A stretch of DNA of 62,840 nt, counting the filler, from Basidiobolus ranarum (lineage: Eukaryota): assembly GCA_040143965.1 (NCBI GenBank). It is 3 parts of 3 records of this genome, joined end to end, with 100 filler letters (N's around TTAATTAATTAA, not from the genome) between each part and the next. Parts side by side here need not be neighbours in the genome. Positions count along the whole stretch, not along the records: positions 21,020 to 41,914 come from JASJQH010007094.1; 2 more parts are not named here. One strand, written 5' to 3'. The notes beneath the pieces are model-generated. The model had not been told where the DNA came from, did no database searches, and worked only from the letters and a program-made list of their open reading frames with translations. The position numbers and the translations under genes were made by a program. This document shows, piece by piece, positions 20,920-42,013 of the stretch; positions within the stretch are counted from its first letter, which is position 1, and the number at the start of each line of letters is the position of its first letter.

Positions 20920-21019
20920 NNNNNNNNNNNNNNNNNNNNNNNNNNNNNNNNNNNNNNNNNNNNTTAATTAATTAANNNNNNNNNNNNNNNNNNNNNNNNN
21001 NNNNNNNNNNNNNNNNNNN
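20920..21019. other. Assembly gap with artificial TTAATTAATTAA linker
   Basis: N-run, TTAATTAATTAA, N-run. The same structure occurs at 41915-42013. Confidence 0.97.
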
Positions 21020-21856
21020 CTATTTGGTGACCAGCGTCATAAGTCTGCTTAAGGAAATGTCCAATATGACTTTGGGCAACTTGAGATCCCAAGACAAAGA
21101 AAGTAGCCTTCACATGTGATACTGGTATAGCTGATATAATGCAAATATAGGATGAACATGGTGAATCGAGCCCTTCCATGGTTAGTGCTTCTAAGCACTC
21201 ACTTGTTACCTATATTGCTTTTACATGCCCTCATGCGTTTGATTCTGATTAATGCTAAGTTGTCCAATCAAGATGCTATGAGTGAACAAAGGTGCTAGTT
21301 TTTGGAATTGGAGACCTTTTCTCACACCGAGTATTAAGTAACGCACGTACATTCCATTGATTAGCCAAGCTTGATGATGTTCGGTAAGTTGTGTGTGACA
21401 AAGAATGACTAATTATAGTAACCAAATACTCTCCATCTTAAAATCATAATCATCGAAGAAAACGAATTACTTGGGTCAAAATGGTATTAATTCGACTTCA
21501 GCATTCGATGTGATTTGCTGCAACAGTTGAGTACTTGACAACCATTTTGATGGATATCTTATCTAATCAGCAATGGCCAGATTTCGAGGTCTCGTAACCT
21601 ATTTACTCATCGAGACTGATGCTTTAATGGACGTAGGTTTATGCTATCGTTGGAGGCTTTTCTTTTTGTAAATTCATTTTCCTATACCAGCTAGGATATA
21701 CATGTTCTGATACCTAATAAAGAAATCATTTCTTAAGTTGGCATGGATTCACACACTCGGAACTCTCGTCATCAATAAGAAGTAGTCAGAAAATTTTTTC
21801 CCACCCGTCTGATTCCTAGACACCATCTATTGATATCTTGAGAGGTAATCGCACCC

Positions 21857-24800: not shown

Positions 24801-25252
24801 TCGTCAAAAAGTAGAACTATACGCCAAACAAGTGAGTTACTAATTTATCCAATGCCATATTAGAGTAATCTCTTACTAATCTTTAACCCCAGGGTTTCGA
24901 TAATCTTCCTATTTGTATGGCCAAGACTCATTTAAGTCTTTCTCATGACCCTAAGCTCAAGGGCGTTCCTACAGGTACACAGTTATATTTCATTCAAATC
25001 ATATCGACCTCTATTAACATGGGTTTTTGAAGGATTTACTGTTCCTATTCGTGACATTCGTGCTAGTGTAGGCGCTGGTTTCCTCTATCCTCTTGTAGGT
25101 ACCATGCAGACCATGCCAGGACTTCCTACTGTAAGTATATTTTGCACTATGTTGTCATATTTATCATGTTCCTAACTCGCTGTATTTAGCGCCCTTGTTT
25201 CTATGATGTGGACTTGGATCCTGAGACTGGTAGAGTTATGGGGCTTTTCTAA
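21857..25252 (+). CDS. Trifunctional C1-tetrahydrofolate synthase (ADE3/MIS1-type), multi-exon, with a 1-nt frameshift at ~22941
   Basis: [55 protein letters not shown], then the FTHFS domain [35 protein letters not shown] and [18 protein letters not shown]. Confidence 0.93.
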
Positions 25253-26130
25253 TGTGCTGAGATGACTCTTGGCATCCCAACGTTTGAGTATGTCACAATA
25301 CCCTACGTTAATCCTGTTATATAGTAAATCTTTTGTTATTCAAACACAAGAATTATATCAACTTAGTTCGCAATCATTCATCAAATAATCACTGAAATAT
25401 TTTGGATTTCATACATAAACATCTTAAAACTACTCTTTCAACTTGTTCAAGTACAACAATCATATTTGGTAATTCAATGCATAGACGGGGAAAATGGAAT
25501 GTCCATATATAAGCCCTCACCTGACTTAGATTAGAATGCAGACCGAAGTAGAATCGATCTTGGATAAAGTAACAAAATGATGTAAATCTGACTGTTGTTG
25601 ATTGAACTGACGCAAAGTGCTTAGCAAATATACGACTCTTCGTGAAGTTGGCATAGCGGAAGAAATTAGATAATTACTAATCGCGATAGATTATCTCGCT
25701 CGAGTTTCCTGGAAAATTTGAAATCCGAGGAGCACCTTAATAATCTTGCCCGGAACAAATTTCTTAAACAGAAGAACACGTACACTCGCTTGAATTGGAC
25801 CTGATACATCCAAAAAGTTATATGAATTTAATAAAGTAAAATATTGGTTGAACAGGTTCAGTTCCACACAATATCAGCGTGATCAAGGGTTAAGGTTGAC
25901 CTCACAGAGTCATGTGAAAATGGTGATTTTGTAATTTCTTATGTAGGACAAACCTTGCCGGTCATTGGAATATTTTCATATATATCTCACCAAGTCAGAA
26001 ACGCTCTTCAAACTTGGAGAAAGTATACAACTCACTTTCATAGAATTCCTACCAAGTCACCCTCTCATTACCTCCCAATTTCTACTTGGTATATTTTATA
26101 TATTTACCACCTGGCCTCGTATTGTTATAC

Positions 26131-27663
26131 ATGTCTGTTCAGCTTCCCACGCCGTGCTTGCGACAGATATTCCAGTGGCTGAAATTCGATAAAGATACCT
26201 GTTATAAACTTTGCTTTGTTAACCGCCTGTGGTCGGAGGCCTCAGTTTTATATCTTTATCGGGATCCCTGGGCCTTATTAGCAAATGAAAAATTTTCGCA
26301 AACTCAGCGGAAGTTAGCTATTACCAAATTACTCCGAACTTACCTGAGCTGTTTAGAGTATGATTCTTTTGACTCTGAAGAACTAGATGCAGTTACTACC
26401 ATAGATGCGCTATGCTCTGATATTGGTTATCTTGACCGTTTCTATCTTTTGATACAAAATTTCTTCAACCAGATGAACCCAATATTGGACGACTTAGAAC
26501 TTCAAGTTGCTGTAGAAGCCTTCGAAGCTATACATTATTCAGCACTCAACCGGCCCTTCTATGATTATCTTTACTTGGCACGTACTTTTGATTTGGTTGC
26601 ACTACAAGATTTTCTCCGTCTAGTCAAAGCAGATCCTTTTCCTTTTTTGAGTTTTGAATATACATCAGAAGAAGTCTTAGTAGACCAGAGATTGGCCTTG
26701 AAACTTTGGAGTGTGACTAGAAGTAGGTGCGCACCTTGCATCACTAGTCTAACTTTGAACGCTATAATCCCTTTGAAAGAGATCTTCCCAGAGCCATTAA
26801 GCTTTTATTCTTTGACACATTTGAAGATACTATGGAAACAAGATCAAATGCCAAATCAACTGCCTGATAACCACCTAAAATTCATAGCTACATCATGCCA
26901 TAATCTTGAAGTGCTACATCTTACTGCTGAAAGTCGGTTAACTCCAATTCTTGATAAAGATATAGCCGAGGTTATCAGAAATCAACGACCAGGTTCTCTT
27001 AGAGAGTTGAAAATTTCCGGAGTAAGCGACCTTTTAACTGAAACCTTAGAGGCTCTATTAGAGCAACATCGTGGAAGTCTGACTTCATTGAAGATATCTA
27101 AGAATGACTCTGGTCGGATTCCACTCACCAAAATCACATCTTTCCCAAATCTGAAAACTTTAGAGCTAGTGGATTGCTTCGTCAGAGATAGAGACATCGA
27201 ATATATAGCAAGTCATGGGGCCCCTTTGAAGAAAATCGTTCTACGTAAATTACATCAAGTCACCTGGAGAGGTATCCGAAATTTGATTCAAAAATCCGGA
27301 TTAAACTTACGAAAATTAGTAGTTCATGAAATACAAGAGCACACTATCGATTCGGAGACGGTGGCAGTGATTGCACAGAATTGTCAAAACTTGCAGCATT
27401 TTCAAATCGAAATGATTCGTATCGACAATTTCGATTTGGCTGGCCTTCTTGGTCGTTGCCATAAGTTGAAGTACTTGTCTTTTGGTGAATTGTCTAGTAA
27501 CTTGCCCTCAGATGGCGATCAGCTGGTAAATGTCATTTTAGATAATTGTCCTCTGCTGAAATATTTGTATGCTCCAGAAATGGTCACGACTGAGTCGGCA
27601 CTCCAAGCTCTGTTACAACATCGTCAGTTAGAGAAGATATCTTTACCTACTATTCTTCTTTAA
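26131..27663 (+). CDS. F-box / leucine-rich-repeat (RNI-like) protein
   Basis: N-terminal LPTPCLRQIF..LCFVNRLWSEASVLYLYRDPW F-box-like motif and C-terminal LRR-like repeats (CHNLEVLHL, FPNLKTLEL, CQNLQHFQI, CPLLKYL). Confidence 0.8.
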   Translation: MSVQLPTPCLRQIFQWLKFDKDTCYKLCFVNRLWSEASVLYLYRDPWALLANEKFSQTQRKLAITKLLRTYLSCLEYDSFDSEELDAVTTIDALCSDIGYLDRFYLLIQNFFNQMNPILDDLELQVAVEAFEAIHYSALNRPFYDYLYLARTFDLVALQDFLRLVKADPFPFLSFEYTSEEVLVDQRLALKLWSVTRSRCAPCITSLTLNAIIPLKEIFPEPLSFYSLTHLKILWKQDQMPNQLPDNHLKFIATSCHNLEVLHLTAESRLTPILDKDIAEVIRNQRPGSLRELKISGVSDLLTETLEALLEQHRGSLTSLKISKNDSGRIPLTKITSFPNLKTLELVDCFVRDRDIEYIASHGAPLKKIVLRKLHQVTWRGIRNLIQKSGLNLRKLVVHEIQEHTIDSETVAVIAQNCQNLQHFQIEMIRIDNFDLAGLLGRCHKLKYLSFGELSSNLPSDGDQLVNVILDNCPLLKYLYAPEMVTTESALQALLQHRQLEKISLPTILL

Positions 27664-27901
27664 ATCTTTTAATATGTAAATAAATTATTTCCTCATTGTA
27701 AATCAAAAGCATATCAATTTGTTTTTAATGATTTTTCATTTATTAATTTGGTAGTGGTTGCCAATATCGCCTGTGATGAGTGCTATGGTGAATCAAAATG
27801 GAAAGTTGGTGGGGTTTAGAATGCAAGTATCTATAAGTGTAGGAGACCTATAACGAATGTCAAGGTGTGATGGTCGTTCATGACATAGGTATCTGAGCTA
27901 A

Positions 27902-29120
27902 TCAAATGGAATCGAGTAGAGTGCTAAGAACACTGACAATTTTATCACCAACTTCAGTAGTGCCCTTCTCACCGCCAAGATCCTTGGTTCTGTAACCATA
28001 TCCACCAGCCTTTGTCTCGTCCAATACCTTCTTAACTGCATTTTCAATAGCCTTAGCTTCGGCTTCCATGTTAAGAGAGTATCTCAAGAGTAGAGCAGCA
28101 CTAAGGATAGTTCCAATGGGATTGGCAATTCCTTGACCTGCAATGTCAGGAGCAGAGCCATGAATAGGCTCATAAAGTCCAAGACATTTCCCTTTTCCAT
28201 CAGGAAGACCACTCAAGGAAGCAGATGGCAAGAGGCCAAGGGAACCGGGAATTACGCTAGCTTCATCACTTAGAATATCACCAAACATATTTTCGGTCAC
28301 AATAACGCCATTGAGAAGACGAGGATTGCGGATCATATGCATGGCTGCAGAATCGACGAGATGATGATCTAGAGGAACGGTAGGAAATTCACTTTCAATG
28401 ATCTCAGTAACGGTTTTACGCCACAAGCGAGATGTAGCAAGAACGTTAGCTTTATCGATTGAGTGGATAGGAAGTGGGGGATTATGCTGAATTGCCAAAT
28501 GCGCGGCCAAGCGCGTGATACGGCGGATTTCTTCAGCACTGTATGGCATTGTATCGACAGCCTGACCGTCTTCATCAGCTTCTTTTCTTTGACCGAAGTA
28601 AATTCCACCGCATAATTCACGGATGATAATGTATTCAGTTCCTCGAACAATTTCTTCTTTGAGGGGACTTGTGGCTACCAAAGAATCACTGGCAAAGCTA
28701 ACAGGACGAATATTGGCATATAGATCGAGAGTTTTTCTGAGATCAAGAAGACCTTGTTCAGGACGAGGAGTCAGACCTTTGGAAGGATCATTAGGATCAA
28801 TGGGACGAGGCCACTGAGGGCCACCAACAGCTCCTAAAAGAATAGCATCGGCATTTTTACACGCTTCCAGAGTTTCAGCTGGGAATGGTACACCTAGATT
28901 ACATAATAAATAAAATGCCAGAAGATATAGAAAAGAAGTACTAATTACCAGTAGCATCAATAGCAGCACCACCAAACTTTGCATCAGTGAATTCAAACTT
29001 CTGACCAGTTACTTGAGAACGTTTTTCAGCAACACATTTCAAAACTTTAACAGCTTCTGTAGTGATTTCAGGGCCGATACCATCACCGGCAAGTACAACG
29101 ATTTTATAAGAGTTGGTCAT
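27902..29120 (-). CDS. LEU2: 3-isopropylmalate dehydrogenase; exons 29120..28949 and 28893..27902
   Basis: [62 protein letters not shown] and [13 protein letters not shown]. Confidence 0.97.
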
Positions 29121-30256
29121 ATGATATAATTTAAACAATCAAACAGTAGAAAAATAAAATCTGACTAAGGCGCTTGTTAAAGAAACTTCACCTGCTGAAG
29201 AATAATGTGAACGTGTATTGAGAGAGCTAGAACGAGTAAAGCTTATTTAAACGAATCCAAAACCCGTATCATCTGACGAATAATGACTCCCACCAGCTCA
29301 GAAGCAGGTTTTGGATAACGTGAGGTAAGTAGCATATATGATTGATTCAGATCATGCCATAGGATATAATTCAAGGCATCTAATATATTCTTGGAGAGAT
29401 ATATCATCTGAATGCACACTGAATGCGCTTCAGTGGAACAATGAGGACAAGCGATCGCCTTAAAGTTGAATTAGAGTAGTACAGCCTCGTGAACTTTAAT
29501 GAGGTGACGCTTCCTTATCTGGCCTCATCGGTAGCCTTCCAGCTGAATTTGGATTGTACGTAGACATGGTTGGTAAGTAGAGGACTGACTCGGAGTGAAT
29601 CACGTTCACCTATTTTCATAAAAACCCATGTTTGGTAATAACAAACTTTGGGGCTTTGATCCTCACATGAATGCAGGTTGAATGATTTCCACTTTTTGTA
29701 CTGGTAATTATCCATGGGAATTTGGCCAGTCGTGTGAACCAAATGAAGCAATGGCATATTTTATCAAGCGCTTGAAAGTGTAATGAAGCGTAGAAACGAA
29801 GACGCGTAATGAACCGCATATTCGGAATGCGCTCTATATCTCAAGAGATATCGCTAAATAGTGATGAGTATTGAATCGTCATCCAGAGTGTTCAGATTGT
29901 GCATTGACTGGCTGGTGTAATGACTCAGTATTTGTACATTGACTTGTGGCCTGTGATCTTGTTGATAATCGGAAAAGTTTGCCTTAACTTCTTTGTAGTG
30001 CTTGGTGACATGAACTTGGCCCATTAGAGATTTTAGCCAATCAAGCTGCATTTTTTAGCAATATTTATTCTTATTTTGGGTCAAAGAATCGTTGGGTATC
30101 ATGTGCATACAAAGTGAATTGCATTGATTCTAATCTAAACCATTGTCAATTAATGAAACAACGCTAAAAAGTAGTGCTCCGTATAAATATCCACTTTCTC
30201 CATCCTCAATCTCATCATCTTTCGGTTGCATTTTCAATTGATTTTAATCTTTCGCA
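29121..30256. promoter_or_regulatory. Divergent LEU2/ILV5 promoter region with Gcn4/CpcA-like TGACTC elements
   Basis: TGACTC at 29284 and 29586, ATGACTCA at 29920, TATAAATA at ~30182 upstream of ILV5. Confidence 0.45.
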
Positions 30257-31509
30257 ATGAACGCCGCCCGTGCTTCCTTCAGAGTACTTGCTAGAGCCTC
30301 TACCGTCTCTAGACAGCCCCTTCGTCAGCTATCAATGGCAACTATGCGTCCAGTCTTCAAAACTGCTGCACAAGCCACTGCTTTGAAGGTAATTTTTATA
30401 TATGTAATATTGAGCTTTGAACATTCCGATTAAATTTACTTTGTAAATAGGTTCAATCTCGTAGCATCAAGACTCTTAACTTTGGTGGCACTGAGGAAAC
30501 TGTGTACGAACGTGCTGATTATCCTAAAGAGAAAATCCAACAAATATTTGCTAAGGATACTCTAACTGTTCTTGGTTATGGCCCCCAAGGTCGTGGTCAA
30601 GCTTTGAATATGCGTGATAATGGTCTTAATGTCATACTTGGTCAACGTAAGGGTAAAACTTACGATCAAGCTGTTGAAGAGGGTTGGATTCCAGGAAAGA
30701 ATCTTTTCTCTATTGAGGAAGCTTGTGATAAGGGTACCGTCATCATGAACTTACTTTCCGATGCTGCTCAAAAAGAGTTATGGCCTACCGTTAAGCCTTA
30801 CCTCACTAAAGGCAAAACCATTTACTTCTCCCACGGATTCTCAGTAGTTTATAAAGAAGATACTGGTGTAATCCCTCCCAGTGATGTAGATGTTATCCTT
30901 GCCGCTCCTAAGGGCTCCGGATTCACCGTCCGTCGCCTTTTCCAGCAAGGTCGTGGTATTAACTCATCCTTTGCTGTGTTCCAAGATTTCTCTGGAAATG
31001 CCAAAGAGAGAGCCATTGCTCTTGGGGTTGGAATCGGTTCCGGTTATTTATATGAAACCACTTTTGAGAAAGAAGTATACTCTGACTTGACTGGTGAGCG
31101 TGGTATTCTTATGGGTGCTATTCAAGGTGCTTTCCAAGCACAATATGAAGTCTTACGTTCCCATGGTCACTCTCCCTCCGAAGCGTTCAATGAAACCGTT
31201 GAGGAAGCCACTCAATCCCTTTATCCTTTGATTGGTGAAAAGGGAATGGATTGGATGTATTCCAACTGCTCAACCACCGCACAACGTGGTGCTCTTGACT
31301 GGTGGAAACCATTCTATAAAGCCACTAAGCCTGTCTTTGAAGAATTGTATGAATCAGTTGCCAACGGAAGTGAAACTCGTCGCTCTCTCGATAAGAACTC
31401 TAAACCCAACTACCGTGAGGAACTTGAGAAAGAATTGGAAGAGATTCGTGAAAGCGAAATGTGGCGTGCTGGAAAGACTGTTCGTAGTCTTCGTCCCGAA
31501 AACAATTAA
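30257..31509 (+). CDS. ILV5: Ketol-acid reductoisomerase, mitochondrial; exons 30257..30388 and 30451..31509
   Basis: Arg-rich presequence, LGYGPQGRGQALNMRD, YFSHGF, APKGSG, EVYSDLTGERG, NCSTTAQRGALDW and VRSLRPEN. Confidence 0.97.
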
Positions 31510-32728
31510 ATCTGTAGCATAAAAGGAATTGATATTCATTCACCGTATTAGCCAGTTCATAATTTTTTAAAAAGCATCCCCCATATTTATCCCTTATTAG
31601 AACGTCGATTCAATATTACGTTATATACATTTCTTTTCACATTTGTAACATTTCGCTTTTCATTTAATGATTGAGTGATATTTCCAAATAAATCCTTCAA
31701 TTAACAAGCTACAGATTATTCACATTTAAAAGAAAAGGCTTTTCAACGAGTTTCATCGATACCTTGAATCACTTACTAAACGCAGAGATTCAGACACACT
31801 GAGCTGAACATGAGGCTTGTGTTCGTGGATTCAGTTCATTCTAGTCTCAAAGCCTTGTTTGCTCATTTGAATCAGATATCTTCATTACTCACAATAAGGC
31901 TTCACTGGAACCTAGTTTCGACTAGACACTCACACAATATATCTTTATGGAGAGGGAATTGGTTTTACTCCATTATTTCCATAAATCGAAGGTACTTTTA
32001 ACTGGTAGAAAAAAGGGCCATTCAAATTTATGAATAAGTCTATGTACGGATTCGGAAATTAAAAACCCACATGATTTAGCCGTCTATCCAGGACATCCAG
32101 ACAAGTCTCGATTCCTCTCGGATGAGCATGGAAGAGAAATTGGAAACCGGCTAAAGGTACACCCGATTTTCTGGAAATCAATATTTAGCATGGCATGTAG
32201 TTCGACATGGACATATGTCAGTAGATACATATAGATATTTGCTATTTATTGTTAAAAAGCAATAATGATCAAGTAATGAATATGTCGAGGTAGATGATAA
32301 GTGAGAAATTATCAACATTGAAAGGAAGAAAATGTGAGTGGGATGGGGATTGCGATTGGGTTGATAGGTAGGTGTATGTGAAGTAGCCTTGTTCGAAAGG
32401 AAAAGAATGGCCAACCCAAGCTGGATCATTTCAAAATTGTACGCGAAGATGGATGATGTTGATTTTGACAAGATAGAGAGAAGTACGTAGTTTACAAAAT
32501 TCCCTTGAAATTTAGGAAACCAATGGAGGTGGTAAAAGGATAGTGTGTAACTTAAGTTAAGGTGGAGTATTTCGATGTGATCTCAGCATTATCGTAGTTG
32601 CGAAGTCAATTTATGGATCCATAATAACCAGTTCTTGCGATGAGAGGAAATGCTAAGATAATGTGTGGAAAAAAATTACAATCTTAAAGAATAGAAATAA
32701 CCCTGATCTCATGGTAGAGTGATGTCAT

Positions 32729-33951
32729 TTAGCTCTGGCTGATGGAAGCCTTTCTGCTTCGAAAAAGCGAGGTTAAGGCGCTTTTGACGGTCTCGCTTTT
32801 GTTGCCACTTGACATACGGCGGACTAAGCCTATACCTCTTGGGGAAGCTTGACTCAAGGATGATGTGGGAGTGGATGACAATGGCATAACCTGATCTTCC
32901 TCTTCAGAGGAATCCAAAATATAAGCTTCGTTTGCAGTATCAACTCGGGTTGTGTTGATAGCAAGTGGTCGTGTTGAACTACCTATACCAATATTATACG
33001 AGCCTGCATCTGATGAATCGCTATCTTCATGTGTGACCAAACTCTCCATGGCAGCAAAAGAACTAAATTCGTCAGCTTTGAATGTCTTGGATAAAGCCAC
33101 CTCTTGCTCGCAAGATTTGGGAAGTGGGAATGGATCATCAACGGTAACATCCGCATTCAAATCCGAAAAATGGCGACATAATGGACAAAGGAAACCGGGC
33201 TTGGTAGCAACCATAGAGCGAACACATTTGAAATGGAAAGCGTGTGAACAAGGTGCTACAAATAAGGCCTGAAGCTGAGATATAGGGTATAAGCAAATAC
33301 AGCATTCCTCTTTCCTATAATTACACCCAGTCTCAGTGTCTACAGTAAGTGATCTAAGCGTTTTTAAAGCATTCTCTCTGTTATGAAGTAACATCAACAA
33401 AACGTTAGTTTAATAGTTTGAAATGGCTCGAATCACTAGTAAAAATGAAAATTACCTATACTCTTCGGACATTTTCATCTTTCCGTAGTGGTTGAACTCG
33501 ATCTTCATACGAACACAACGATACACTTCTTCGTGACCGCCTTGATAATCGACACCCAGTTGAACAATGTCGCCATCTCTGAGGGAATGAGGCTTACTCT
33601 CGCAACCAGGCGGACTCAAACGCGAGTTATTCAAGAAAGTACCAGAAGAAGATTTTATATCACGGATAAAAAACTTTGAAAATAAATCGGATTAATAAAG
33701 GAAAGGAATATCAGATATGTCAGCATACAACTTACCTCTCCCTTAACGCACCATACCTCGGCATGGCCTCTGCTAACAACCTTGCTTTTGAAAGCAATTC
33801 TTAGGGGCGATTGTGCTTTCTCGGTAAATCTTCCGATTTTGAGGACTGTTCCTTCGGGTACGTCGGACTCAATGATAGGGAAATATAAAGATTTGTTGAT
33901 ATCCACAATATGAGGAACAATACGAATATGAGGTATTTGTTGAGTAGCCAT
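32729..33951 (-). CDS. FHA + RING-H2 E3 ubiquitin ligase (Dma1/Dma2-like); exons 33951..33736, 33673..33456, 33377..32729
   Basis: FHA motifs IGRF, FKSKVVSRGHAE, DIKSSSGTFLN and DGDIVQLGVDYQGG. RING: ECCICL..QALFVAPCSHAFHFKC..CPLCR. Confidence 0.92.
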
Positions 33952-35518
33952 TGAAAGGAATATGTACTTTTAAAAAATTGAGACGACGGGTAAGTTAAAG
34001 AAATACAAAAGGAGAATAGAATGGAAAGAAACTCTTCACTTTTCAAAAAAGAAATTGATTACAATGGTAAAAAAGAAACAATTGAAATGGGGAAATGGGC
34101 AGCGACAGAATAATTCGATTTGAAAAATCGTGTGAAACTGGTCAGGATCCACACATTTATATTCGAAGTATTTGCGTGAGGAAGGATAGACAGAAGGCAA
34201 ATGAACATTATTCTGTGGAATATCTGATGATGCGACACATCCAAATATAGAAGTGGATTTTAATTAACGCGAACTGAGATATACGGGTATTTAGATTTTT
34301 CCTCGATGAATATTCCTGACACCCGCAATGAAGACAACAATCAGATTAACCACCATGTTAACACGGTTTAACAGCGTTTCACTCAACTTCACACAATAAT
34401 AGGTGATGATCGGGGATGTTCTGGTATGGCATGAGGGGCCTATCCAAATAAGGCGTATCAATATCCGCATCCTTTCAAGGCGATACCATATATAATAATG
34501 GAGTACTGGGTGCATCTTGATAACAGACGAAATATGTACTATCTTAATCACTTTCTGACCTTTTCAGACGCTTTCGGACGCTTTGAGATTATCAAATAGA
34601 GGTTTTATGCAGTTTGGCCCTGGTGTTAAGAATGATTCTCCTCTTTTGTACAAGTGCTCATTTTGGTTCGGTTGGATACATATGATTCAATACTGACTGA
34701 AATATGTGAACATGAAGTCAGTTGTTAAGCTTACTTATGATATCATCATTTCTCTGCTATTCATGGAGAATACCTTTTCCGAAGGGTTCTTGGGATTTTA
34801 GTTTAAGAGATGGCTTTAGTGCAGATGGTAACAGAATATCCTAAACAATATAGAATCGCGGCTAAATATGGTTTAGTGTTAAAAGATATTACAGTCTGAT
34901 AACATCAGAACCCTGGTTTCTACATAGCCAATCCCCAATCACCATCGGCCAATTCAAAAAAAGGTCTAGAACCGGACGTATTTTATTTACGAGTATGTCC
35001 TTAGCCACTTTTACCAAATATTATCACTCACTGTGGATCGTCCCAGCCTGTATTATTTCTTTCAATGGTTTATTATTATTATTCGCGAAATCTAAATGCA
35101 AACCTAATTGTTTTGTTTAGTTATTGTATAGAGATTTCAAATATTGCTTAATGTTTGACTTAACTATTATGAATACTGCTTTAAAGTTTCCTCATATAGA
35201 ATAGCAATTATAAATATGAAAATCTGTAATAGTTGACATTTTGACATTTCTTTGAAAGTTTAATTAATGTAATTTTATCTTAATAAGCTAATTGCTCTCA
35301 TAAACTAGACTGTTGACATGGCTAATGATAAAGTGGCTGAATTGCGCCAGATTATTTCTCAAAGTTCAAAAGTTAAGCATGGAATTCATTGTACGATTAG
35401 GTGAGTTTGACACCAACATACGTGATTTTAACGTGGGAAAATGGGGTTTCTATCCGTCAATACGTAAGCAATTGCATTAAATATACTTCGAGAAATATTC
35501 ATAATAGTGTATACAATT

Positions 35519-36487
35519 ATGACCTCCAAGAGCGATAATCCTTACGAAACCGACGTTCAAGTCAGCCAATATTGCGACTTTCACTATGGCCCACCAACTC
35601 CTATACGTGAAGTTGAACCCTTTCCAGTGGTGATTGCCCGCATTTGTGAAGCAGTTGTTCGTAACAGTCAGTTCTGGGATAAGCAAGCAAATGCACCCAA
35701 GAATGGCCCTCTACGTAGTTTTGACTTGGGTTGTGCAGTTGGTCGTTCGACTTTAGAGCTTGCCAAAACTTTCGACCAAGTAGTAGGGGCAGATTACTCT
35801 AACCGCTTTGTTGAAACTGGTGCGGAAGTGGCCAAAAATAAGAAGGTCAAGTTTTCAGCACTACTTGAGGGCTCTATCTTTTCTCATCACGAGGTGATTC
35901 TTGGCCAAGGAAATGTGCCACTAACTGGTGCAGATGGTCAATCTCTTATCAAAGATATTTTCGGTGGTATTCCTGCTACCGAAGCTATGGACTCAAAGGC
36001 TGTAGAGAAATTGACTGAGAGAATTACTTTTATGCAACAAGATGCTTGTAACTTGACGACTGAACCTGAACTTTATAACTTCCACTGTGTACTTGCAGCT
36101 AACCTTATCGACCGCCTATATGAGCCTCAATTATTTTTGAATTCTATTCATGAACGTATTGTACCTGGCGGATTTTTAGTGTTACTCTCGCCTTATACTT
36201 GGTTACCTGAATACACACCAATTGAACATTGGGTAGGTGGAAAAAGCTCCAATGGCGAGGTAACTATGACTAAGGATGGTTTAAAGCAAGTTCTTTCGAA
36301 GAACTTTGAACTCGTAGAAATCACACCCATCAACCCGGATTTTGAGGATTTGAATACTCCTACATCCGTAGAACCCAAAGATAAGAAAACAATCACTTCT
36401 TTCCATGTTCCATTTGTCATACGCGAAACTCATCGTAAGTATCAACACAGTTTCTCAGAGTGTACTATTTGGCGTAGACTTGAGTAA
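35519..36487 (+). CDS. Stand-alone SAM-dependent methyltransferase resembling the OvoA C-terminal (mercaptohistidine N-methyltransferase) domain; intronless
   Basis: NPYETDVQVSQYCDFHYG, DLGCAVGRSTLELA, DACNL, LAANLIDRLYEP, SPYTWL, W.GG and PFVIRETHRKYQH resemble, from my recall of the family, the OvoA C-terminal methyltransferase. Confidence 0.8.
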   Translation: MTSKSDNPYETDVQVSQYCDFHYGPPTPIREVEPFPVVIARICEAVVRNSQFWDKQANAPKNGPLRSFDLGCAVGRSTLELAKTFDQVVGADYSNRFVETGAEVAKNKKVKFSALLEGSIFSHHEVILGQGNVPLTGADGQSLIKDIFGGIPATEAMDSKAVEKLTERITFMQQDACNLTTEPELYNFHCVLAANLIDRLYEPQLFLNSIHERIVPGGFLVLLSPYTWLPEYTPIEHWVGGKSSNGEVTMTKDGLKQVLSKNFELVEITPINPDFEDLNTPTSVEPKDKKTITSFHVPFVIRETHRKYQHSFSECTIWRRLE

Positions 36488-37178
36488 ATGTGGAATACTG
36501 GAAACTTGGCTATTTTGAATGCATTACTTAAAATTCCATTGAAAAAATTAAATTTGTATGCTAGTTGATACTATAGTTACTGCATCTACAATCATATATA
36601 TCCTAGATTTGGCTTAGAAATTATTATCTGCATCGTTCAGCGTGATGCTTCAAGTTATTCTTACTGATCTGCAGGTTAACATCTAAATTGCATCTTAAAA
36701 TCAATTGTATAAATATATTCCTTTCGTCCTATAACACAGTATCATTTCCTGCACGGTTTAACAAGTTTTGTATTCTTTCCTCCAATTGCTATTTGGCAAG
36801 TCTAGCTTACCTAAATACACTATGGGTTCAGTGAATATATTATGGAGGGAACAAAATCAATCTATGTGTTAAATACGAACTAAACAATGAATGGGTGCAC
36901 ATAAAGAAATAGAACATAAATACGTCAATAAGTAAAGTTAAGGATATCCATTATTAAAGTCGATGTTAAGACGGATTTTTCTAAGGAATATTGGTTCGTG
37001 TATTAGTACATAGCGTATAGAATTATATTATCAAGGAGATAGCTGTATGAATGTATGTTGGTTGATAGAGGACTAAAATCACAATGGTTAGCATGTAGAA
37101 TGTATAGTACAATGGTTAAGAAAGACATGAGAGTTTAACGTAAAGAAACAAAATTATGTTGGTTGAAGTCACAATCTT

Positions 37179-37427
37179 CTAATATTCCTCGTCATCTTCA
37201 TAATGGTGTGGAAAAGAGACGTAATCAGAAGCGAAGATATCTTCATAGGATTTACGACGAATTGGAGGACTTCGTAAAATGTCAGCTACTGAAAATGGAT
37301 TCCATGCTTCTTTTGGTACTATAGTAGCCTGAACGTTCACTGTGGTAGTATGGTTGGTGGAACGATGTGATTTTAATGGTACACTATCTGTCGTTCTTTT
37401 GGGTGGTTCAATATGGAAATGAGCCAT
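37179..37427 (-). CDS. Small hypothetical protein (82 aa)
   Basis: Isolated ORF with an upstream TATAAATA (~37510, minus strand) and an acidic C-terminus DYVSFPHHYEDDEEY. No family recognised. Confidence 0.5.
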   Translation of the reverse strand: MAHFHIEPPKRTTDSVPLKSHRSTNHTTTVNVQATIVPKEAWNPFSVADILRSPPIRRKSYEDIFASDYVSFPHHYEDDEEY

Positions 37428-38165
37428 CGATAATGAAATAGAGGTTAAAGAGTTAAGTTTTGGGATTACAAAGTAGATGTTGTAAAGGAGTGAGCACTCA
37501 ACCTAGTCTATTTATACTTAACGTGCATGCGATGTTTCTCCACGAATAGCACCTTCAGATGTCCGGAATCGTAATGCAGCTTCACATGGCCACGAGGTAA
37601 ATCAGCTACTAGTACAATATTATAACTTGAGATAGCGTGGTGTTGTAAGAATATATTCAGAGTTATTAATCAGTATGTATAAATTGTATGTATAAATAGC
37701 CTATGTTGTATGTATCAACCGTATATATACAATTCAAACATGTTACATTAATCCGACCGTGTATTGAAGTTCTTTAGTGCGAGCCTCGTTGGAAACCCGT
37801 ATGGATGTATTAGGGTTAGAAGTAATTCTTGTATTATCTTCATTGATAAAGTACAGTTTAACATCGTTTCAAGATCAAGAAACCATTATTAACGAATGAT
37901 GGTTGCGGGCCAATACTGTTTGTTTAGAAATCAGGTTTATGGTTCCTTCAAAGCTCGTTAATTCTCGACATCATCAGGTCTTTTAAAACGCAGCACTTGC
38001 TTTTATTCTCAAAGAGAAAATGGAACACAGGAAGCAAACATCAGAGTGCTTTTAAAGATAATTCGGGCATCAGGAAACCATCGTTTGTTCTGGAAATAAT
38101 AGAATTATTGTTTATTATTGAAGATTCTCCATATTATTAAGTAACAAGTAGTTCCAGAGCACTAT

Positions 38166-38612
38166 TTAAGTATGATAAATAAATTGAACGCCGTCGATAT
38201 CGAAGTCTGCGTAGGTTTTGACATGTGGGCCTCTATTAAAGTTGAAATTGCTGGTGCTTACGGTTCCATCATCATTGATTTTTTCAACCACAGCTACGTG
38301 ACCTTGAGCTCCAGTTCCTTGTGTAAATCCAGGTAAAACGATAATAGAGGGTACTCTAGGCTCTCGTGACACCTTCCATCCTTGATGCTTTCGAGCACTA
38401 TTTGCCCAGGTTTCAGCGTTGCCTCCCCACTCAGTACGATGTCCAGTTAGCTGGTAATACCTAGCATCTGCCCAATCCGTACATTGCCCATTTCCAAAGC
38501 GAAATTCCAAAGAGACTTCTCTCGCTTGTCTTTTACGGACTGATAAAGGGTGGACAAAACTTAGATAGATGGTAAGTATAAGCAGTATAGTTTGAATTTT
38601 GAAGGAAACCAT
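38166..38612 (-). CDS. Secreted CHAP-domain protein (putative peptidoglycan amidase/endopeptidase), intronless
   Basis: Signal peptide, VRKR dibasic site, then GQCTDWA (catalytic Cys), WGGNAETW and GHVAVVE (His/Glu). Confidence 0.88.
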   Translation of the reverse strand: MVSFKIQTILLILTIYLSFVHPLSVRKRQAREVSLEFRFGNGQCTDWADARYYQLTGHRTEWGGNAETWANSARKHQGWKVSREPRVPSIIVLPGFTQGTGAQGHVAVVEKINDDGTVSTSNFNFNRGPHVKTYADFDIDGVQFIYHT

Positions 38613-39335
38613 TATTAAGAGATGTTACACTAAGAAGCAATCACGCTAGTCTAGAGAAAAATATGTGATGAGAAAGCAAACGATGGAAATAGAAACTTTT
38701 GTCTCGGTTTATATACGTTACTTACTATCCATTGAACACCTAGTTCAGCACCAAGAAGCAATCAAGCATAACGGTAATCTACTTAATGGTATATCCAATA
38801 AGCTAAAATAACACAATAATATTCTCATCTTTAACAGGATACAAGTACACTGTGTTCACCCCTGAGTTTCGAGGGTATTTTGGTATAAAGGGGTGCAGTA
38901 TTTGGCAAAATTCCAACTGAAAGAATTGCTTATATATGCAAAGTGTTATTTTAGCTAAAAGAAAATACTCATGCCAAGTGCGGTGCCATAAGCATCAGTT
39001 ACTGCTTCGAATTACAGAAAGTAATCCAATTCTGAACATCATTCTGTGAGACTCAATTGCCTGACTTAATGATTGCAACTTACTAACTTGTCACTGATTG
39101 ATAGTCATCTCCTTTCTGCAAGGTGGTTCCAAATAAATATGTATTCCACTGACAGCCACTACCCAACGTTTCTTAGGAAACAAAGCCCCGGTTCGCCCGT
39201 GGAAGCATTTACTGCATTCATAAATGATTTACATATCCTTGCTCTAAATTATGCTAGTACTAAGGAGTGGAACTTTTAATATATGAGATATTGATTCAGT
39301 ATTTATTGATTAGAGGGGCAATCAATAGATTTACA

Positions 39336-40226
39336 CTAGCGCCAGATAAAATCAACCCCATTCCCAGTTTTGAAAGAGGCATAGGTTTTGATGTATGGAC
39401 CTCCGTTGAAATTGTAATTGCTAGTGTACACGCTACCATCAGATTCGATACTTTCAACAACTGCTACATGACCAATACCTCCAGTTCCCTGAGCACCAGG
39501 CTGCAAAACGATAATACACGGAGATTTAGGGCTACTGGAAACAGTCCATCCTTTTGACTTGGCATCGTTAGCCCAGTTTAGAGCATCACTTTTCCACTCA
39601 ACATGGTGACCGCTAAGTTGATGATAACGAGCATCGGCCCAGTCGGTACATTGTCCATTTTTGAATTGAAAATCCAATGAACTATCGGCGCTACTGTATC
39701 CTTGGCCCTTTCCTGTACTGGCTGGGCTTTCAGTTTTTGAATTCTTGGGGCTAGATACCTTCGAACCGTTTCCATTGCTGTTGCCATCTACATTTTCATT
39801 ACTGTTTCCATTGGTATTACCATTGCCATTGCTTTTGTTACTCCCATTTGTATTGCCATTGTTTTTGTTACTTCCCGCGGTGTTACCATTACCATTACTA
39901 TACCCATTGGTATTACCATTACCATTGCTTCTGTTGTTCCCATAGTTATTCCCGTTTCCGTTCGTGTTGGAACTGGAGGGTGATTGACCACCACTGTTAC
40001 CACCAGTAGTTTGTCCGTAGTTCTGCTTACCATTTTGATTTTGGTTGTTTCCATTGGAGTAGTTTGGTACATAGGAGTAGTTGCCTCGACGATTGATATT
40101 CGATCCAGTCGTATCGTCTAATCCCAACGATTCAACGTTGGAGCGGTTGATGTTCAATGGTAGGGCTTGCACGGCAAGACCGGATAAATAGAGAGAGATG
40201 ATAACATAAGAATTGATAAGATACAT
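39336..40226 (-). CDS. Secreted CHAP-domain protein with an Asn/Gly-rich low-complexity linker, intronless
   Basis: Signal peptide, NGNGNT-type repeats, then a C-terminal FKNGQCTDWADARY..DALNWA..GHVAVVE..SNYN domain. Paralog of 38166..38612. Confidence 0.88.
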   Translation of the reverse strand: MYLINSYVIISLYLSGLAVQALPLNINRSNVESLGLDDTTGSNINRRGNYSYVPNYSNGNNQNQNGKQNYGQTTGGNSGGQSPSSSNTNGNGNNYGNNRSNGNGNTNGYSNGNGNTAGSNKNNGNTNGSNKSNGNGNTNGNSNENVDGNSNGNGSKVSSPKNSKTESPASTGKGQGYSSADSSLDFQFKNGQCTDWADARYHQLSGHHVEWKSDALNWANDAKSKGWTVSSSPKSPCIIVLQPGAQGTGGIGHVAVVESIESDGSVYTSNYNFNGGPYIKTYASFKTGNGVDFIWR

Positions 40227-40783
40227 GTTTATACAGTCACTTTGCCAGAAAGTTGGACTACAAAGGTAAAGAAATAGAGTGAATTGAGAATCTCTAGCTG
40301 GTTAGTGCCGCCATATATACTATCGACGGACTAAGGTACCTTGCATCGACTAGCGTGATAATAAATTCCCCATTTCCCCCATCTAGTTGATTCAGGAACA
40401 TCGAGGTGTAATATTCATTGAAGAGTGAATTCTGACCTCTGCTATAGCTAGGGTGGTTCATTTTACTACGAATTTGTATTAGCAATCTATCATTCAAGCA
40501 AAATCCAAGACATTGTTTCCATTTGTTAATAGATTTATCGCACGCGAAACAGAAAAGGAGACCATTAATATACACATATTGCAAGGCTCTAGCCCTACTT
40601 GTAACGAGAACATCAAATAGACAAGAATATAAACAATTCTCAAGAAACATTTATATTGAATACAAATTGCTCTCTCCTAGAAATCTACATCTGCCCCGCA
40701 AGAAAGCTTTCACATATACAAGATAACGGATTGAATGGGGGGAGGGGAATCTACTAAATCAACACCGCCAAACATTTTGTAAT

Positions 40784-41490
40784 TTATGCAACGGTTTCAT
40801 TTCTACTTTTCCACAAAGTCGCCTCATTCTTTAAAATATCCCATCTGTTGCGACACTCAATGCTCGTTTTACCCTTTATTTTTTTGGCAATTGCTTTCCA
40901 ATCACCAAATCCAACAGTTTTGATTGCCTTGAGAAGTGCATTGTCAAGTCTCAAACTCCAATCCTCATTAGACGAATTTAATATCTGCGAATATCTAGAT
41001 CGTATCTGACCACTAGTATAAGTGGAAAATCCATTCTGTTGAATAACATCCCAAGAATCTCCGTGTTCTTTCATCATTTTTAAAAGGAGTTCGTCTTCTT
41101 CAGGAGTAAATGGTATTACCTCAGTAGTCTCGGTTTCTTCAACAGGTTGACTTTTTTCAACTCTGATTTCGGCATTCGGGGCTTTATTGGTCTTGGGTTT
41201 TTTACCTTCTAAAACTGGTTTTAAGGTAACCATATAATGATAGCGCAAAGTTTGAGGCTGTCGATTTGAAAAATGTTCAGAAAATTGGCCCCATTTCCTT
41301 CCGTACAACTTCACATAACGTATCAGTTTCTCATCATCTTCAGGTGTCCAAATTAAAGTACGTAATGCAGACGTAGTAGAGAAAGGTCGAACTTTTAAGG
41401 AACCTAAATTAAGGTACTTGTGTTAGGATAAGTACTAGTTTGACCTGTATTGTACTCTAACTTACTTCTTGTTAGACTCCACCAGTTCAT
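40784..41490 (-). CDS. Myb/SANT-repeat protein (3 repeats) with a putative mitochondrial presequence; exons 41490..41466 and 41403..40784
   Basis: Repeats WTPEDDEKL..YGRKW, FTPEEDELL..HGDSW and WSLRLDNAL..GDWKAIAKKIKGKTSIECRNRW. Intron 41404-41465 (GTAAGT..TAG) gives the N-terminus MNWWSLTRSSLKVRPFSTTSALR. Confidence 0.85.
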
Positions 41491-41685
41491 TGTAAAGAAA
41501 TATTTGAACTGTTGTTTGTTAACAATAACGAATCTTTTTCTTTTCGAGAATTCATCGAATTTTTATGATGTCATGATTATGGAATAAAATATCGTTTATA
41601 TTTCTATTTCTAGTTGGAAAATTAATCAAAATTTTGGGAAAGATTAAATTTACATGGTGTAAGAGGAGATTTAAGCTACTCTAAT

Positions 41686-41914
41686 TCAATTCGCTGAAGT
41701 GGAAGCAACTTCACCTGATGTGGGTTCTATTTGTTCTACATTTTGTCCAACTACGAGTCGATGGTCTTTGAAGAGAGTGTATGTATCGACTGGGGTACTA
41801 AAGCGGTCACTGGATCCTCCAAAAAAAGTCTCGAAGTCGATACCAGTGTAGCCTACCGTATCATTCACTCTCCATATTAGTTGATTATAATCTATCACCA
41901 CTTCATCGTCGTAC
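41686..41914 (-). CDS. 3' fragment of a polysaccharide lyase family 14-like protein (5' part lost in the gap)
   Basis: GIDFETFFGGSSDRFSTPVDTYTLFKD resembles the conserved PL14 C-terminal F.TFFGG....TP motif. Confidence 0.6.
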
Positions 41915-42013
41915 NNNNNNNNNNNNNNNNNNNNNNNNNNNNNNNNNNNNNNNNNNNNTTAATTAATTAANNNNNNNNNNNNNNNNNNNNNNNNNNNNNN
42001 NNNNNNNNNNNNN
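41915..42013. other. Assembly gap with artificial TTAATTAATTAA linker
   Basis: N-run, linker, N-run. Confidence 0.97.

What the first reader, a model, noticed from the sequence alone, without database searches (positions are those of the whole stretch)
38166..40226. Tandem pair of intronless secreted CHAP-domain proteins: candidate antibacterial effectors of bacterial origin
Seen: both ORFs have signal peptides and an intact Cys-His-Glu CHAP set (GQCT..W / GHVAVVE), share F.NGQCTDWADARY.QL.GH, and lack introns in an intron-rich neighbourhood. Established: CHAP domains are peptidoglycan amidases/endopeptidases typical of Firmicutes (SsaA/PcsB-like) and phage lysins, and fungi have no peptidoglycan. 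Inference: a horizontally acquired, duplicated cell-wall hydrolase used against bacteria. The shorter copy has a Kex2-like KR site, suggesting adaptation to the fungal secretory pathway.
Basis: partly seen in the sequence, partly recalled or inferred. Interest (0 to 1): 0.78.

Follow-up and report, generated by a model that had tools for sequence, protein, structure and literature searches.

The report
Fungal family of borrowed wall-cutting enzymes
These two fungal genes belong to a family of about thirty or more secreted enzymes that the fungus's ancestors took from soil bacteria and that probably cut bacterial cell walls, which would give gut- and insect-associated fungi a protein weapon against neighbouring bacteria.

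Summary
Both ORFs are real, intronless, signal-peptide-like CHAP (PF05257) genes on one gap-free contig with intron-bearing fungal genes; the genome is a Basidiobolus. (1) The pair is not a local duplication: the genome has 76 matches, 31 of them complete and stop-free. Each gene has its own B. meristosporus orthologue, and sisterhood is rejected. (2) The triad is Cys-His-Asn (C44/H105/N122), not Cys-His-Glu; the E of GHVAVVE is not the catalytic position. (3) The nearest bacterial relatives are Ktedonobacteria (Chloroflexota), not Firmicutes (AU p=0.011). Entomophthora, Conidiobolus, Neoconidiobolus and Massospora carry the same subfamily, and the fungal sequences form one clade (95/83). Best reading: one ancient bacterium-to-fungus transfer, then birth-and-death expansion under purifying selection (dN/dS about 0.19), giving secreted peptidoglycan peptidases used on bacteria. 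Activity, expression and secretion are untested. It works like Trichomonas NlpC/P60. My paper searches found no description of this fungal family, though one key supplement was unreadable.

The parts
38166..38612 (-). Gene A (P0001), 148 aa: signal-peptide-like N-terminus, short pro-peptide, Asn-type CHAP domain
   Evidence: ORF; Pfam CHAP E 1.2e-16; AF2 pLDDT 92.4; best structural match 5t1q, Z 16.9, rmsd 1.8, 113 aligned; orthologue P0003 75% identical
38547..38612 (-). Gene A predicted signal peptide (about residues 1-22)
   Evidence: Hydrophobic core, helix 3-18 in the model; cleavage site inferred, no SignalP run
38520..38546 (-). Gene A pro-peptide LSVRKRQAR with KR27-28 (38529-38534); likely removed by a Kex2-type protease
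   Evidence: Sequence. KR is not kept in the orthologue P0003, which has LKAR|E at the same place; processing is inferred
38169..38516 (-). Gene A CHAP domain (residues 33-148); Cys44 at 38481-38483, His105 at 38298-38300, Asn122 at 38247-38249, Asn124; Asp46 at Cys+2
   Evidence: Alignment to 2K3A, column counts, triad numbering from papers
39336..40226 (-). Gene B (P0002), 296 aa: signal-peptide-like N-terminus, pro-peptide ending INRR, Asn/Gly/Ser-rich linker, Asn-type CHAP domain
   Evidence: ORF; Pfam CHAP E 1.9e-15; sister to B. meristosporus P0010, 99/97
40086..40091 (-). Gene B dibasic RR46-47 (INRR), candidate Kex2 site
   Evidence: Conserved in orthologue P0010; similar LxxR/RR/KR ends occur in several paralogues
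39687..40085 (-). Gene B low-complexity Asn/Gly/Ser linker (about residues 48-180)
   Evidence: Sequence; the whole protein has 7 N-glycosylation sequons
39339..39683 (-). Gene B CHAP domain (residues 182-296); Cys193 at 39648-39650, His253 at 39468-39470, Asn270 at 39417-39419
40784..41600 (-). Upstream Myb-domain gene (split by introns; 5' end approximate), a syntenic marker
   Evidence: Pfam Myb E 8.8e-22. A similar Myb-like ORF lies upstream of gene A's paralogue on contig C587 (recognised by eye, not scanned)
37179..37427 (-). Downstream 82-aa ORF of no known family, a syntenic marker
   Evidence: No Pfam or NCBIfam hit; 77% identical copy on C587 downstream of gene A's paralogue
21020..41914 (.). 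Gap-free contig (G000:C7094) carrying both CHAP genes together with fungal housekeeping genes
   Evidence: N runs only at 20920-21019 and 41915-42014 around it; KARI, RING, Myb Pfam hits; CHAP places on C7094

Best explanation
The two genes are old paralogues in a large Basidiobolus family of secreted CHAP cysteine amidases/peptidases. The family descends from one transfer of a CHAP domain from a Ktedonobacteria-related soil bacterium (or its mobile elements) into an ancestor shared with the Entomophthorales. The fungus dropped the bacterial membrane anchor and put the domain behind a eukaryotic signal peptide and pro-peptide or linker. After secretion and Kex2-type trimming, Cys44 (activated by His105, oriented by Asn122, with Gln43/Asn124 helping the oxyanion) attacks an amide bond of the peptidoglycan stem or cross-bridge. 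This weakens or lyses neighbouring bacteria, most easily those with exposed walls, for competition and for food. Shown: family, fold, catalytic residues, location, copy number, selection, tree position. Inferred: direction and age of transfer, secretion, processing, substrate, antibacterial role.
For: Pfam CHAP in both. Model pLDDT 92.4; the top structural matches are staphylococcal, streptococcal and phage CHAP wall hydrolases (Z 13-17), above Gsp/trypanothione amidases (Z about 10). Cys in 61 of 61 fungal rows that cover the column and His in 69 of 70. Cys-His-Asn is the triad of the active lysin PlyCA (C333/H420/N438; passage in PMC9437275). His+17 is Glu in 0 of 70 fungal and 0 of 99 named Ktedonobacteria rows, but in 14 of 17 Bacillota/Actinomycetota rows. 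Tree of 46 rows: fungi+Ktedonobacteria-type clade 100/98, fungi 95/83. Same-clade metagenomic proteins are fused to SLT or LysM domains (P0055, P0058, P0091, P0112), which ties this subfamily to peptidoglycan. dN/dS median 0.19, maximum 0.33, over 30 of 351 paralogue pairs with usable dS. GC3 0.34-0.35 in the domains matches host genes (0.31-0.44), not Ktedonobacteria (0.60). Two paralogues carry a GT-AG intron at the same place in an added Cys-rich module. The genome also has a signal-bearing SH3x3-GH24 lysozyme, a GH25 and an NlpC/P60 match.
Against: No activity, expression or secretion data; no RNA reads could be examined. No member of this Asn-type Ktedonobacteria subfamily was found characterised. 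Replacing the third residue matters in Glu-type enzymes: CHAPK E134A is strongly reduced. The two window proteins have no recognised wall-binding domain, and their domain pI is near neutral (6.4-6.5), unlike many lytic effectors. All fungal rows have Asp/Glu at Cys+2 (61 of 61) against 2 of 98 named Ktedonobacteria, so specificity may have shifted. Nesting inside Ktedonobacteria is not shown: fungi as sister group is not rejected (p-AU 0.12), and only 118 columns are available. Other fungal lineages were not surveyed genome by genome; 791 of 941 hits were not visible. No Amidase_2 or M23 match was found in the genome.
Confidence: 0.68

Rival explanations
1. Same bacterial origin, but the enzyme was re-purposed as a secreted amidase/peptidase for non-peptidoglycan substrates, such as arthropod cuticle or host matrix proteins, gamma-glutamyl amides, or the fungus's own wall or spore-discharge glue.
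For: Shared by Basidiobolus and insect-killing Entomophthorales, whose common traits include arthropod contact and forcible spore discharge (recalled). A fixed acidic residue at Cys+2, a groove position in CHAPK (Asp56), in all fungal rows. One paralogue has a GPI-like hydrophobic tail (P0019). CHAP folds also serve the Gsp/trypanothione amidases.
Against: The domain is still 43-57% identical to bacterial wall-type CHAPs across its length. The nearest folds are wall hydrolases. A 30-fold expansion with domain pI from 4.2 to 9.8 fits many bacterial targets better than one self substrate. The genome keeps other bacteriolytic enzyme types.
Confidence: 0.17
2. The proteins act on peptidoglycan but do not kill. 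They trim or bind shed wall fragments, for nutrient scavenging or to remove the signal that alerts insect or vertebrate immunity.
For: No wall-binding domain and neutral charge in the window pair; Asn/Asp instead of Glu may lower turnover (E134A result); hosts are animals that sense peptidoglycan (established knowledge).
Against: Catalytic Cys/His are kept under purifying selection in nearly all complete copies; PlyCA is active with Asn; isolated CHAP domains such as CHAPK lyse cells without a binding domain (zymogram passages).
Confidence: 0.1
3. History differs: two separate transfers from related bacteria (one to Basidiobolus, one to Entomophthorales), or a later fungus-to-fungus transfer, instead of one ancestral gain.
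For: Support for fungal monophyly is only just starred (95/83; SH-aLRT 93), and Entomophthorales branches are long. One phylogenomic study places Basidiobolus apart from Entomophthorales as the earliest Zoopagomycota branch (passage in PMC10079182), which would need losses elsewhere under a single gain.
Against: Both trees that resolve it join the two fungal groups; they share the acidic Cys+2 residue that is rare in bacteria.
Confidence: 0.2
4. Bacterial contamination or assembly artefact.
For: Intronless genes of bacterial type; fragmented assembly (13,754 contigs); read linkage could not be examined.
Against: Gap-free contig with intron-bearing fungal genes; host-like GC3; orthologues in another Basidiobolus species; duplicated syntenic block on C587; spliceosomal introns in paralogues.
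Confidence: 0.01

Closest known systems
Bacterial and phage CHAP domains, PF05257 / peptidase C51 (S. saprophyticus 2K3A, S. aureus 5T1Q, PcsB, CHAPK, PlyCA)
   Same: Fold (Z 13-17), Gln-Cys, Gly-His and His+19 Asn motifs, small secreted single-domain layout as in SsaA-type proteins.
   Different: Third triad residue Asn/Asp rather than Glu (as in PlyCA); no CHAPK-type acidic calcium loop before the Cys (my reading of offsets); eukaryotic signal, pro-peptide and linkers; only 28-38% identical to these.
Ktedonobacteria CHAP proteins (Dictyobacter, Thermogemmatispora, Ktedonobacter; uncharacterised) and small unnamed N-terminal-CHAP or SLT-CHAP proteins from metagenomes
   Same: Closest relatives, 43-57% identity, same clade 100/98, His+17 Asn in 86 of 99 named rows; multi-copy in the bacteria too (11 matches in one Dictyobacter genome).
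   Different: The bacterial proteins mostly have a long N-terminus with a hydrophobic, membrane-anchor-like stretch (read) and Tyr/Trp at Cys+2; the fungal ones are signal-peptide-led with Asp/Glu at Cys+2.
[quoted passage not shown]
   Same: Eukaryote living among bacteria; bacterial papain-fold wall peptidase gained by transfer and expanded; shown there to degrade peptidoglycan and help outcompete bacteria.
   Different: Different Pfam family (NlpC/P60 versus CHAP), host kingdom and donor; here activity is untested and the family has 31 or more complete copies.
Transferred GH25 muramidases in eukaryotes and archaea (PMC4241558, abstract and outline seen); Dae amidases of ticks and other eukaryotes (recalled, not checked)
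   Same: Bacterial wall-lytic gene adopted as an antibacterial protein.
   Different: Glycosidase or T6SS-derived amidase rather than CHAP; Tse1/Tae3 match only at Z 8-9.
Bacterial gene transfers into Basidiobolus (PMC7466969; one results section and passages read)
   Same: Intron-poor genes of bacterial origin among fungal genes, ameliorated in composition.
   Different: That paper stresses secondary-metabolite genes and gut-type donors (Proteobacteria, Firmicutes, Actinobacteria); its main text has no 'CHAP', 'peptidoglycan' or 'Chloroflexi'. Here the donor looks like a Chloroflexota lineage and the gain is shared with Entomophthorales. Its tables S4/S5 could not be read.

Membership tests
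CHAP domain (PF05257) | Profile match above the gathering score | tested here: met
   61.4 and 57.6 bits versus cut-off 26
CHAP domain (PF05257) | Papain-like CHAP fold | tested here: met
   Gene A model pLDDT 92.4; 5t1q Z 16.9, rmsd 1.8, 113 aligned. Gene B was not modelled.
CHAP domain (PF05257) | Catalytic Cys and His in place | tested here: met
   C44/H105 and C193/H253 align with 2K3A C57/H109
CHAP domain (PF05257) | Polar third residue at His+17 (Glu in most, Asn in PlyCA) | tested here: met
   Asn122 and Asn270; PlyCA Asn438
CHAP domain (PF05257) | Peptidoglycan amidase/endopeptidase activity | not testable with these tools
   Needs biochemistry
SsaA/PcsB-type Firmicutes CHAP (Cys-His-Glu-Asn relay) | Glu at His+17 | tested here: not met
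   Glu in 0 of 70 fungal rows, 14 of 17 Bacillota/Actinomycetota rows
SsaA/PcsB-type Firmicutes CHAP (Cys-His-Glu-Asn relay) | Groups with Bacillota CHAPs; PcsB whole-protein model | tested here: not met
   AU rejects fungi+Bacillota/Actinomycetota, p 0.0114 (8 such rows in a 46-row tree); PcsB equivalog 40.6 and 31.2 bits versus cut-off 450
Ktedonobacteria-type Asn CHAP clade (informal, defined here) | Member of the clade in a tree with Glu-type outgroups | tested here: met
   100/98; SH-aLRT 97
Ktedonobacteria-type Asn CHAP clade (informal, defined here) | Nested inside the bacterial members (names the donor side) | tested here: inconclusive
   Best tree nests it (88/84, 92/77), but a sister position is not rejected (p-AU 0.12)
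Horizontally acquired antibacterial wall hydrolases of eukaryotes (Trichomonas NlpC/P60-like) | Integrated in the eukaryotic genome | tested here: met
Horizontally acquired antibacterial wall hydrolases of eukaryotes (Trichomonas NlpC/P60-like) | Patchy distribution among eukaryotes | tested here: inconclusive
   Named eukaryote hits are only Basidiobolus and Entomophthorales, but only 30 of the 150 listed (941 total) hits were looked up, and the word-index searches are of limited sensitivity
Horizontally acquired antibacterial wall hydrolases of eukaryotes (Trichomonas NlpC/P60-like) | Secreted and expressed | tested here: inconclusive
   Hydrophobic N-termini only; no signal-peptide predictor or RNA data
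Horizontally acquired antibacterial wall hydrolases of eukaryotes (Trichomonas NlpC/P60-like) | Harms bacteria | not testable with these tools
   Needs killing or lysis assays

The most novel reading that the evidence does not exclude
A single very old transfer from a Ktedonobacteria-type soil bacterium gave the ancestor of Basidiobolus and the Entomophthorales a Cys-His-Asn CHAP enzyme. It became a dedicated, undescribed fungal antibacterial effector family, expanded to 30-50 copies with diversified charge, added disulfides, binding modules and membrane anchors. With it these fungi prune or feed on gut and insect-cadaver bacteria. The shared gain would also be a rare genomic character uniting Basidiobolus with Entomophthorales, whose relationship is disputed.
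Probability: 0.4. Interest if true: 0.78.

Novelty: new variant of a known kind. Interest (0 to 1): 0.6.

Why it matters
Basidiobolus is described as a central taxon in reptile and amphibian gut networks (PMC12400927, passages), but how it acts on bacteria is open, and published work centres on secondary metabolites. A family of 31 or more small secreted wall peptidases gives a direct, cheap test: express a 115-residue domain and assay it. It adds CHAP domains, and a Chloroflexota donor, to the short list of wall hydrolases adopted by eukaryotes. Its presence in insect-killing Entomophthorales raises the same question for cadaver defence. A natural library of eukaryote-secreted, partly disulfide-bearing lysin domains could also be useful as enzybiotic leads. 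The pattern itself (eukaryote borrows a wall hydrolase) is known, which caps the score.

Tried and rejected
Contamination: rejected. Recent tandem duplication: rejected; the two genes share DNA only over the domain (67.9% over 308 nt, no flank similarity) and sisterhood fails the AU test. Firmicutes or phage source: phage records give 29 matches at 31.5-38.2%; plasmids give 582 matches, of which the 40 listed are at 29.6-37.1%; IMG/VR gives 2 relatives of 9 stretches, at 31%. A search for longer fused forms covered only 712-2030 aa and found none among 3679 candidates, which is weak evidence. The careful 95-row tree did not finish, so the quick tree and a 46-row careful tree were used; I picked those rows from 346 distinct domains. 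The regex triad counts were faulty and were replaced by column counts. The MTHFD row used the wrong strand and was dropped. The script stopped early; its remaining part was run. The ESM Atlas search with the domain gave only generic CHAP clusters. The metagenome scan gave 79 loci at GC 0.42-0.66, and the best-scoring ones look like the Ktedonobacteria type; no further eukaryote was recognised. Literature: 'Basidiobolus'+'CHAP' 0 papers; 'CHAP'+'Entomophthora'+'peptidase' 0; 'CHAP'+'Conidiobolus' 1 paper, on blow-fly lipids by its listing; 'PF05257'+'fungi' 5 and 'CHAP domain'+'fungi'+'horizontal gene transfer'+'antibacterial' 5, none on fungal CHAPs by title or abstract start. No CHAP term in the main text or supplements of PMC11291939 or PMC8778642. 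PMC10079182's supplement has no CHAP row but also lacks NLPC and Phage_lysozyme, so it is uninformative. No complex was predicted, as no binding claim is made.
Full report
Observation. Two minus-strand ORFs lie at 38166-38612 (148 aa, P0001, gene A) and 39336-40226 (296 aa, P0002, gene B). Both match Pfam CHAP at 61.4 and 57.6 bits against a cut-off of 26, and their domains are 57% identical. An AlphaFold2 model of gene A from a 138-row alignment has mean pLDDT 92.4. It matches S. aureus 5T1Q at Z 16.9 (rmsd 1.8, 113 aligned), then phage phi812 hub CHAP (14.2), 2LRJ (13.5), PcsB (13.2) and 2K3A (13.1); Gsp/trypanothione amidases score about 10 and Tse1 about 9. N-termini are hydrophobic (heuristic only).

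The triad. In characterised CHAPs the third residue is 17 places after the His: 2K3A H109/E126 and CHAPK H117/E134 (PMC4126393, passages), Skl H92/E109 (PMC8586454, passages). Gene A aligns to 2K3A without gaps across this stretch, which gives C44/H105/N122; gene B has C193/H253/N270. Column counts over 346 distinct domains show Glu at His+17 in 0 of 70 fungal rows (56 Asn, 10 Asp, 2 His, 1 Lys, 1 gap) and in 0 of 99 named Ktedonobacteria rows (86 Asn). It is Glu in 14 of 17 Bacillota/Actinomycetota rows and in 24 of 29 rows from a Chloroflexota sample. Asn is compatible with activity: PlyCA uses C333/H420/N438 (PMC9437275, passages). Against that, CHAPK E134A is strongly reduced, so the position matters. 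All 61 fungal rows that cover Cys+2 have Asp or Glu there, against 2 of 98 named Ktedonobacteria. In CHAPK the same offset (Asp56) lines the groove and binds calcium, but gene A lacks the other acidic ligands by offset, so its role is unknown.

Processing sites. Gene A has KR27-28, but its orthologue has LKAR|E and no dibasic site. Gene B has INRR, kept in its orthologue, and several paralogues have similar LxxR/RR/KR ends (the scan in 119 stopped after 25 proteins). Kex2-type trimming is plausible for both and is not peculiar to the short copy.

It is a real fungal locus. Window 21020-41914 has no N and carries KARI, RING and Myb genes; the FHA-RING gene has GT-AG introns (read). GC3 of the domains is 0.34-0.35 (whole gene B 0.41), host genes 0.31-0.44 (7 genes; one further row dropped for wrong strand), Ktedonobacteria domains 0.60 (18 loci). 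All 32 named hits (33 proteins of 42 candidates, one being gene A itself) are Basidiobolus, so the genome is a Basidiobolus. A second contig, C587, repeats the order Myb-like gene, gene A paralogue, 82-aa ORF (77% identical), without gene B and with an extra long ORF; dS to gene A is 2.1. Gene A has therefore been at this place since before an old segmental duplication.

It is a large family. The Pfam model finds 50 matches among 56 candidates in the genome, and gene A finds 76 among 83. By my count of that table, 31 span the whole domain without a stop (one has Tyr for the catalytic His), 8 contain stops and 37 are partial, many at contig ends. The assembly is fragmented, so some near-identical copies may be redundant and others missing. 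Arrays of two or three occur on several contigs (C251, C928, C2428, C7950). For 27 distinct domains, 30 of 351 pairs have dS between 0.05 and 1.5; dN/dS has median 0.19 and maximum 0.33 (simple Nei-Gojobori; 4 of the pairs include one copy that is broken at its start). The window pair has dN 0.32, dS 1.63 and shares no flanking DNA. Each gene is sister to its own B. meristosporus protein (100/100 and 99/97), and forcing the two together is rejected (p-AU 5.6e-9). Paralogues vary in domain pI from 4.2 to 9.8. Some have extra cysteines, one has a GPI-like tail (P0019, by eye), and four carry an N-terminal Cys-rich module. In the two checked, that module holds a GT-AG intron at the same codon. 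It has no Pfam match; its nearest predicted structures include parts of Myxococcota M23 and Amidase_2 proteins (TM 0.75 and 0.52 over 45-55 residues, under the tool's naming bar), a lead only.

Origin. phmmer over 1.84 billion representatives gave 941 hits, 150 listed. After the Basidiobolus rows the best are 107-98 bits. Of the first eight non-Basidiobolus hits, five have named cluster members, all Ktedonobacteria or Chloroflexota, and three are unnamed. In GTDB genomes 233 of 241 stretches were relatives; all 67 loci returned are titled Ktedonobacteria, Chloroflexia or Chloroflexota, at 43-57% identity (the search pattern came from an alignment rich in such proteins, so this is biased). Phage and plasmid collections reach only about 30-38%. 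I looked up 30 of the 150 listed hits: 3 Basidiobolus, 5 Ktedonobacteria-type, 3 Entomophthorales, 19 without organism. A profile search from the fungal sequences gave 15 proteins of 5663 candidates: six Entomophthora muscae (three with consecutive locus numbers), one Conidiobolus coronatus, one Neoconidiobolus thromboides, one Massospora cicadina, one Streptococcus and five without organism. In a 46-row, 118-column tree (rows chosen by me from 346), Basidiobolus (96/90) and Entomophthorales (99/98) form one clade (95/83). That clade lies inside one of Ktedonobacteria and small unnamed metagenomic proteins (100/98), apart from Glu-type Chloroflexota and Bacillota/Actinomycetota. A 95-row quick tree agrees (93 and 97). 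Fungi plus Bacillota/Actinomycetota is rejected (p-AU 0.0114); fungi as sister to all Ktedonobacteria-type rows is not (0.12). The donor is thus 'Ktedonobacteria-related', not pinned. Direction bacteria-to-fungi is inferred from the breadth of CHAP in bacteria and its narrow known range in fungi. One study places Basidiobolus apart from Entomophthorales (PMC10079182, passages), so a single gain implies either losses elsewhere, a fungus-to-fungus step, or support for their union.

Mechanism. Most likely (0.68) the proteins are secreted and trimmed, and cut an amide bond of peptidoglycan by Cys/His/Asn papain-type catalysis, harming or digesting bacteria. Support beyond the fold: unnamed proteins of the same clade are fused to SLT or LysM domains (4 of the 18 proteins scanned). 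The genome also holds a signal-bearing SH3x3-GH24 lysozyme (9 GH24 matches, 2 strong and stop-free), one GH25 with an in-frame stop and one NlpC/P60 match, but no Amidase_2 or M23. Nothing here shows expression, secretion, substrate or killing. Rivals: a shifted, non-peptidoglycan substrate (0.17); trimming or binding of wall fragments without killing (0.10); contamination (0.01). Separate transfers (0.2) concern history, not function.

Comparison and novelty. It is a CHAP family member by profile, fold and catalytic residues, but not of the Glu-type SsaA/PcsB group. It works like Trichomonas NlpC/P60 (PMC6299479, abstract and outline) and transferred GH25 muramidases (PMC4241558, abstract and outline). 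Searches for this family in print found nothing relevant (listings only). 'CHAP' is absent from the main text of the Basidiobolus transfer paper PMC7466969, from PMC11291939 and its supplements, from PMC8778642 and its supplement and from the 19-genome preprint. Tables S4/S5 of PMC7466969 could not be read and may list these genes, and subscription journals are not covered. Databases already label the proteins 'Peptidase C51 domain-containing'. Verdict: new variant of a known kind; interest 0.6.

Noticed in passing
window 35519-36487 (+): Intronless 322-aa methyltransferase matching TIGR04345 ovoA_Cterm (ovothiol-type 4-mercaptohistidine N1-methyltransferase) above its cut-off, 222.6 versus 170 bits. 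It stands alone, 1.7 kb from the CHAP pair, and may be another gene of bacterial type.
   Followed up: partly
L178:583-1923 (G000:C8039); also C1306: Intronless signal-bearing protein with three bacterial SH3 domains and a GH24 phage-type lysozyme, an endolysin-like enzyme in the same fungus.
   Followed up: partly
L176 (G000:C8408) and L177 (G000:C566): A GH25 muramidase gene with an in-frame TAG, and a partial NlpC/P60 match.
   Followed up: partly
L116 (G000:C753) and L114 (G000:C1249): CHAP paralogues with an unnamed roughly 55-residue Cys-rich N-terminal module holding an intron; the predicted structure resembles parts of Myxococcota M23/Amidase_2 proteins and small Ascomycota proteins. 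Possibly a wall-binding module.
   Followed up: partly
window 37179-37427 (-): 82-aa ORF with no Pfam or NCBIfam match, kept at 77% identity in the duplicated block on C587.
   Followed up: partly
G000:C587 versus window 37163-41600: Old duplicated block (Myb-like gene, CHAP, 82-aa ORF) with saturated dS, in line with regional genome duplication.
   Followed up: partly
window 44886-45260 and 47052-47360 (+): Two tandem exons resembling beta-type carbonate dehydratase (below the whole-protein cut-off), probably two paralogous genes.
   Followed up: no
window 41684-41914: 231 bp at the contig end match G000:C251, which holds three CHAP genes, at 92.6%; a repeat or shared fragment, not examined.
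   Followed up: no
L136-L145 (G001) and P0044, P0048, P0052, P0055, P0058: One Dictyobacter genome has 11 CHAP matches. A set of unnamed metagenomic proteins has an N-terminal CHAP or SLT-CHAP and C-terminal hydrophobic segments and looks mobile-element-like; none of nine looked up names an organism.
   Followed up: partly
P0177, P0200, P0204 (Entomophthora muscae proteins): Three CHAP genes with consecutive locus numbers on one contig, an independent tandem expansion in an insect pathogen; P0203 and P0121 have His at the third triad place.
   Followed up: partly
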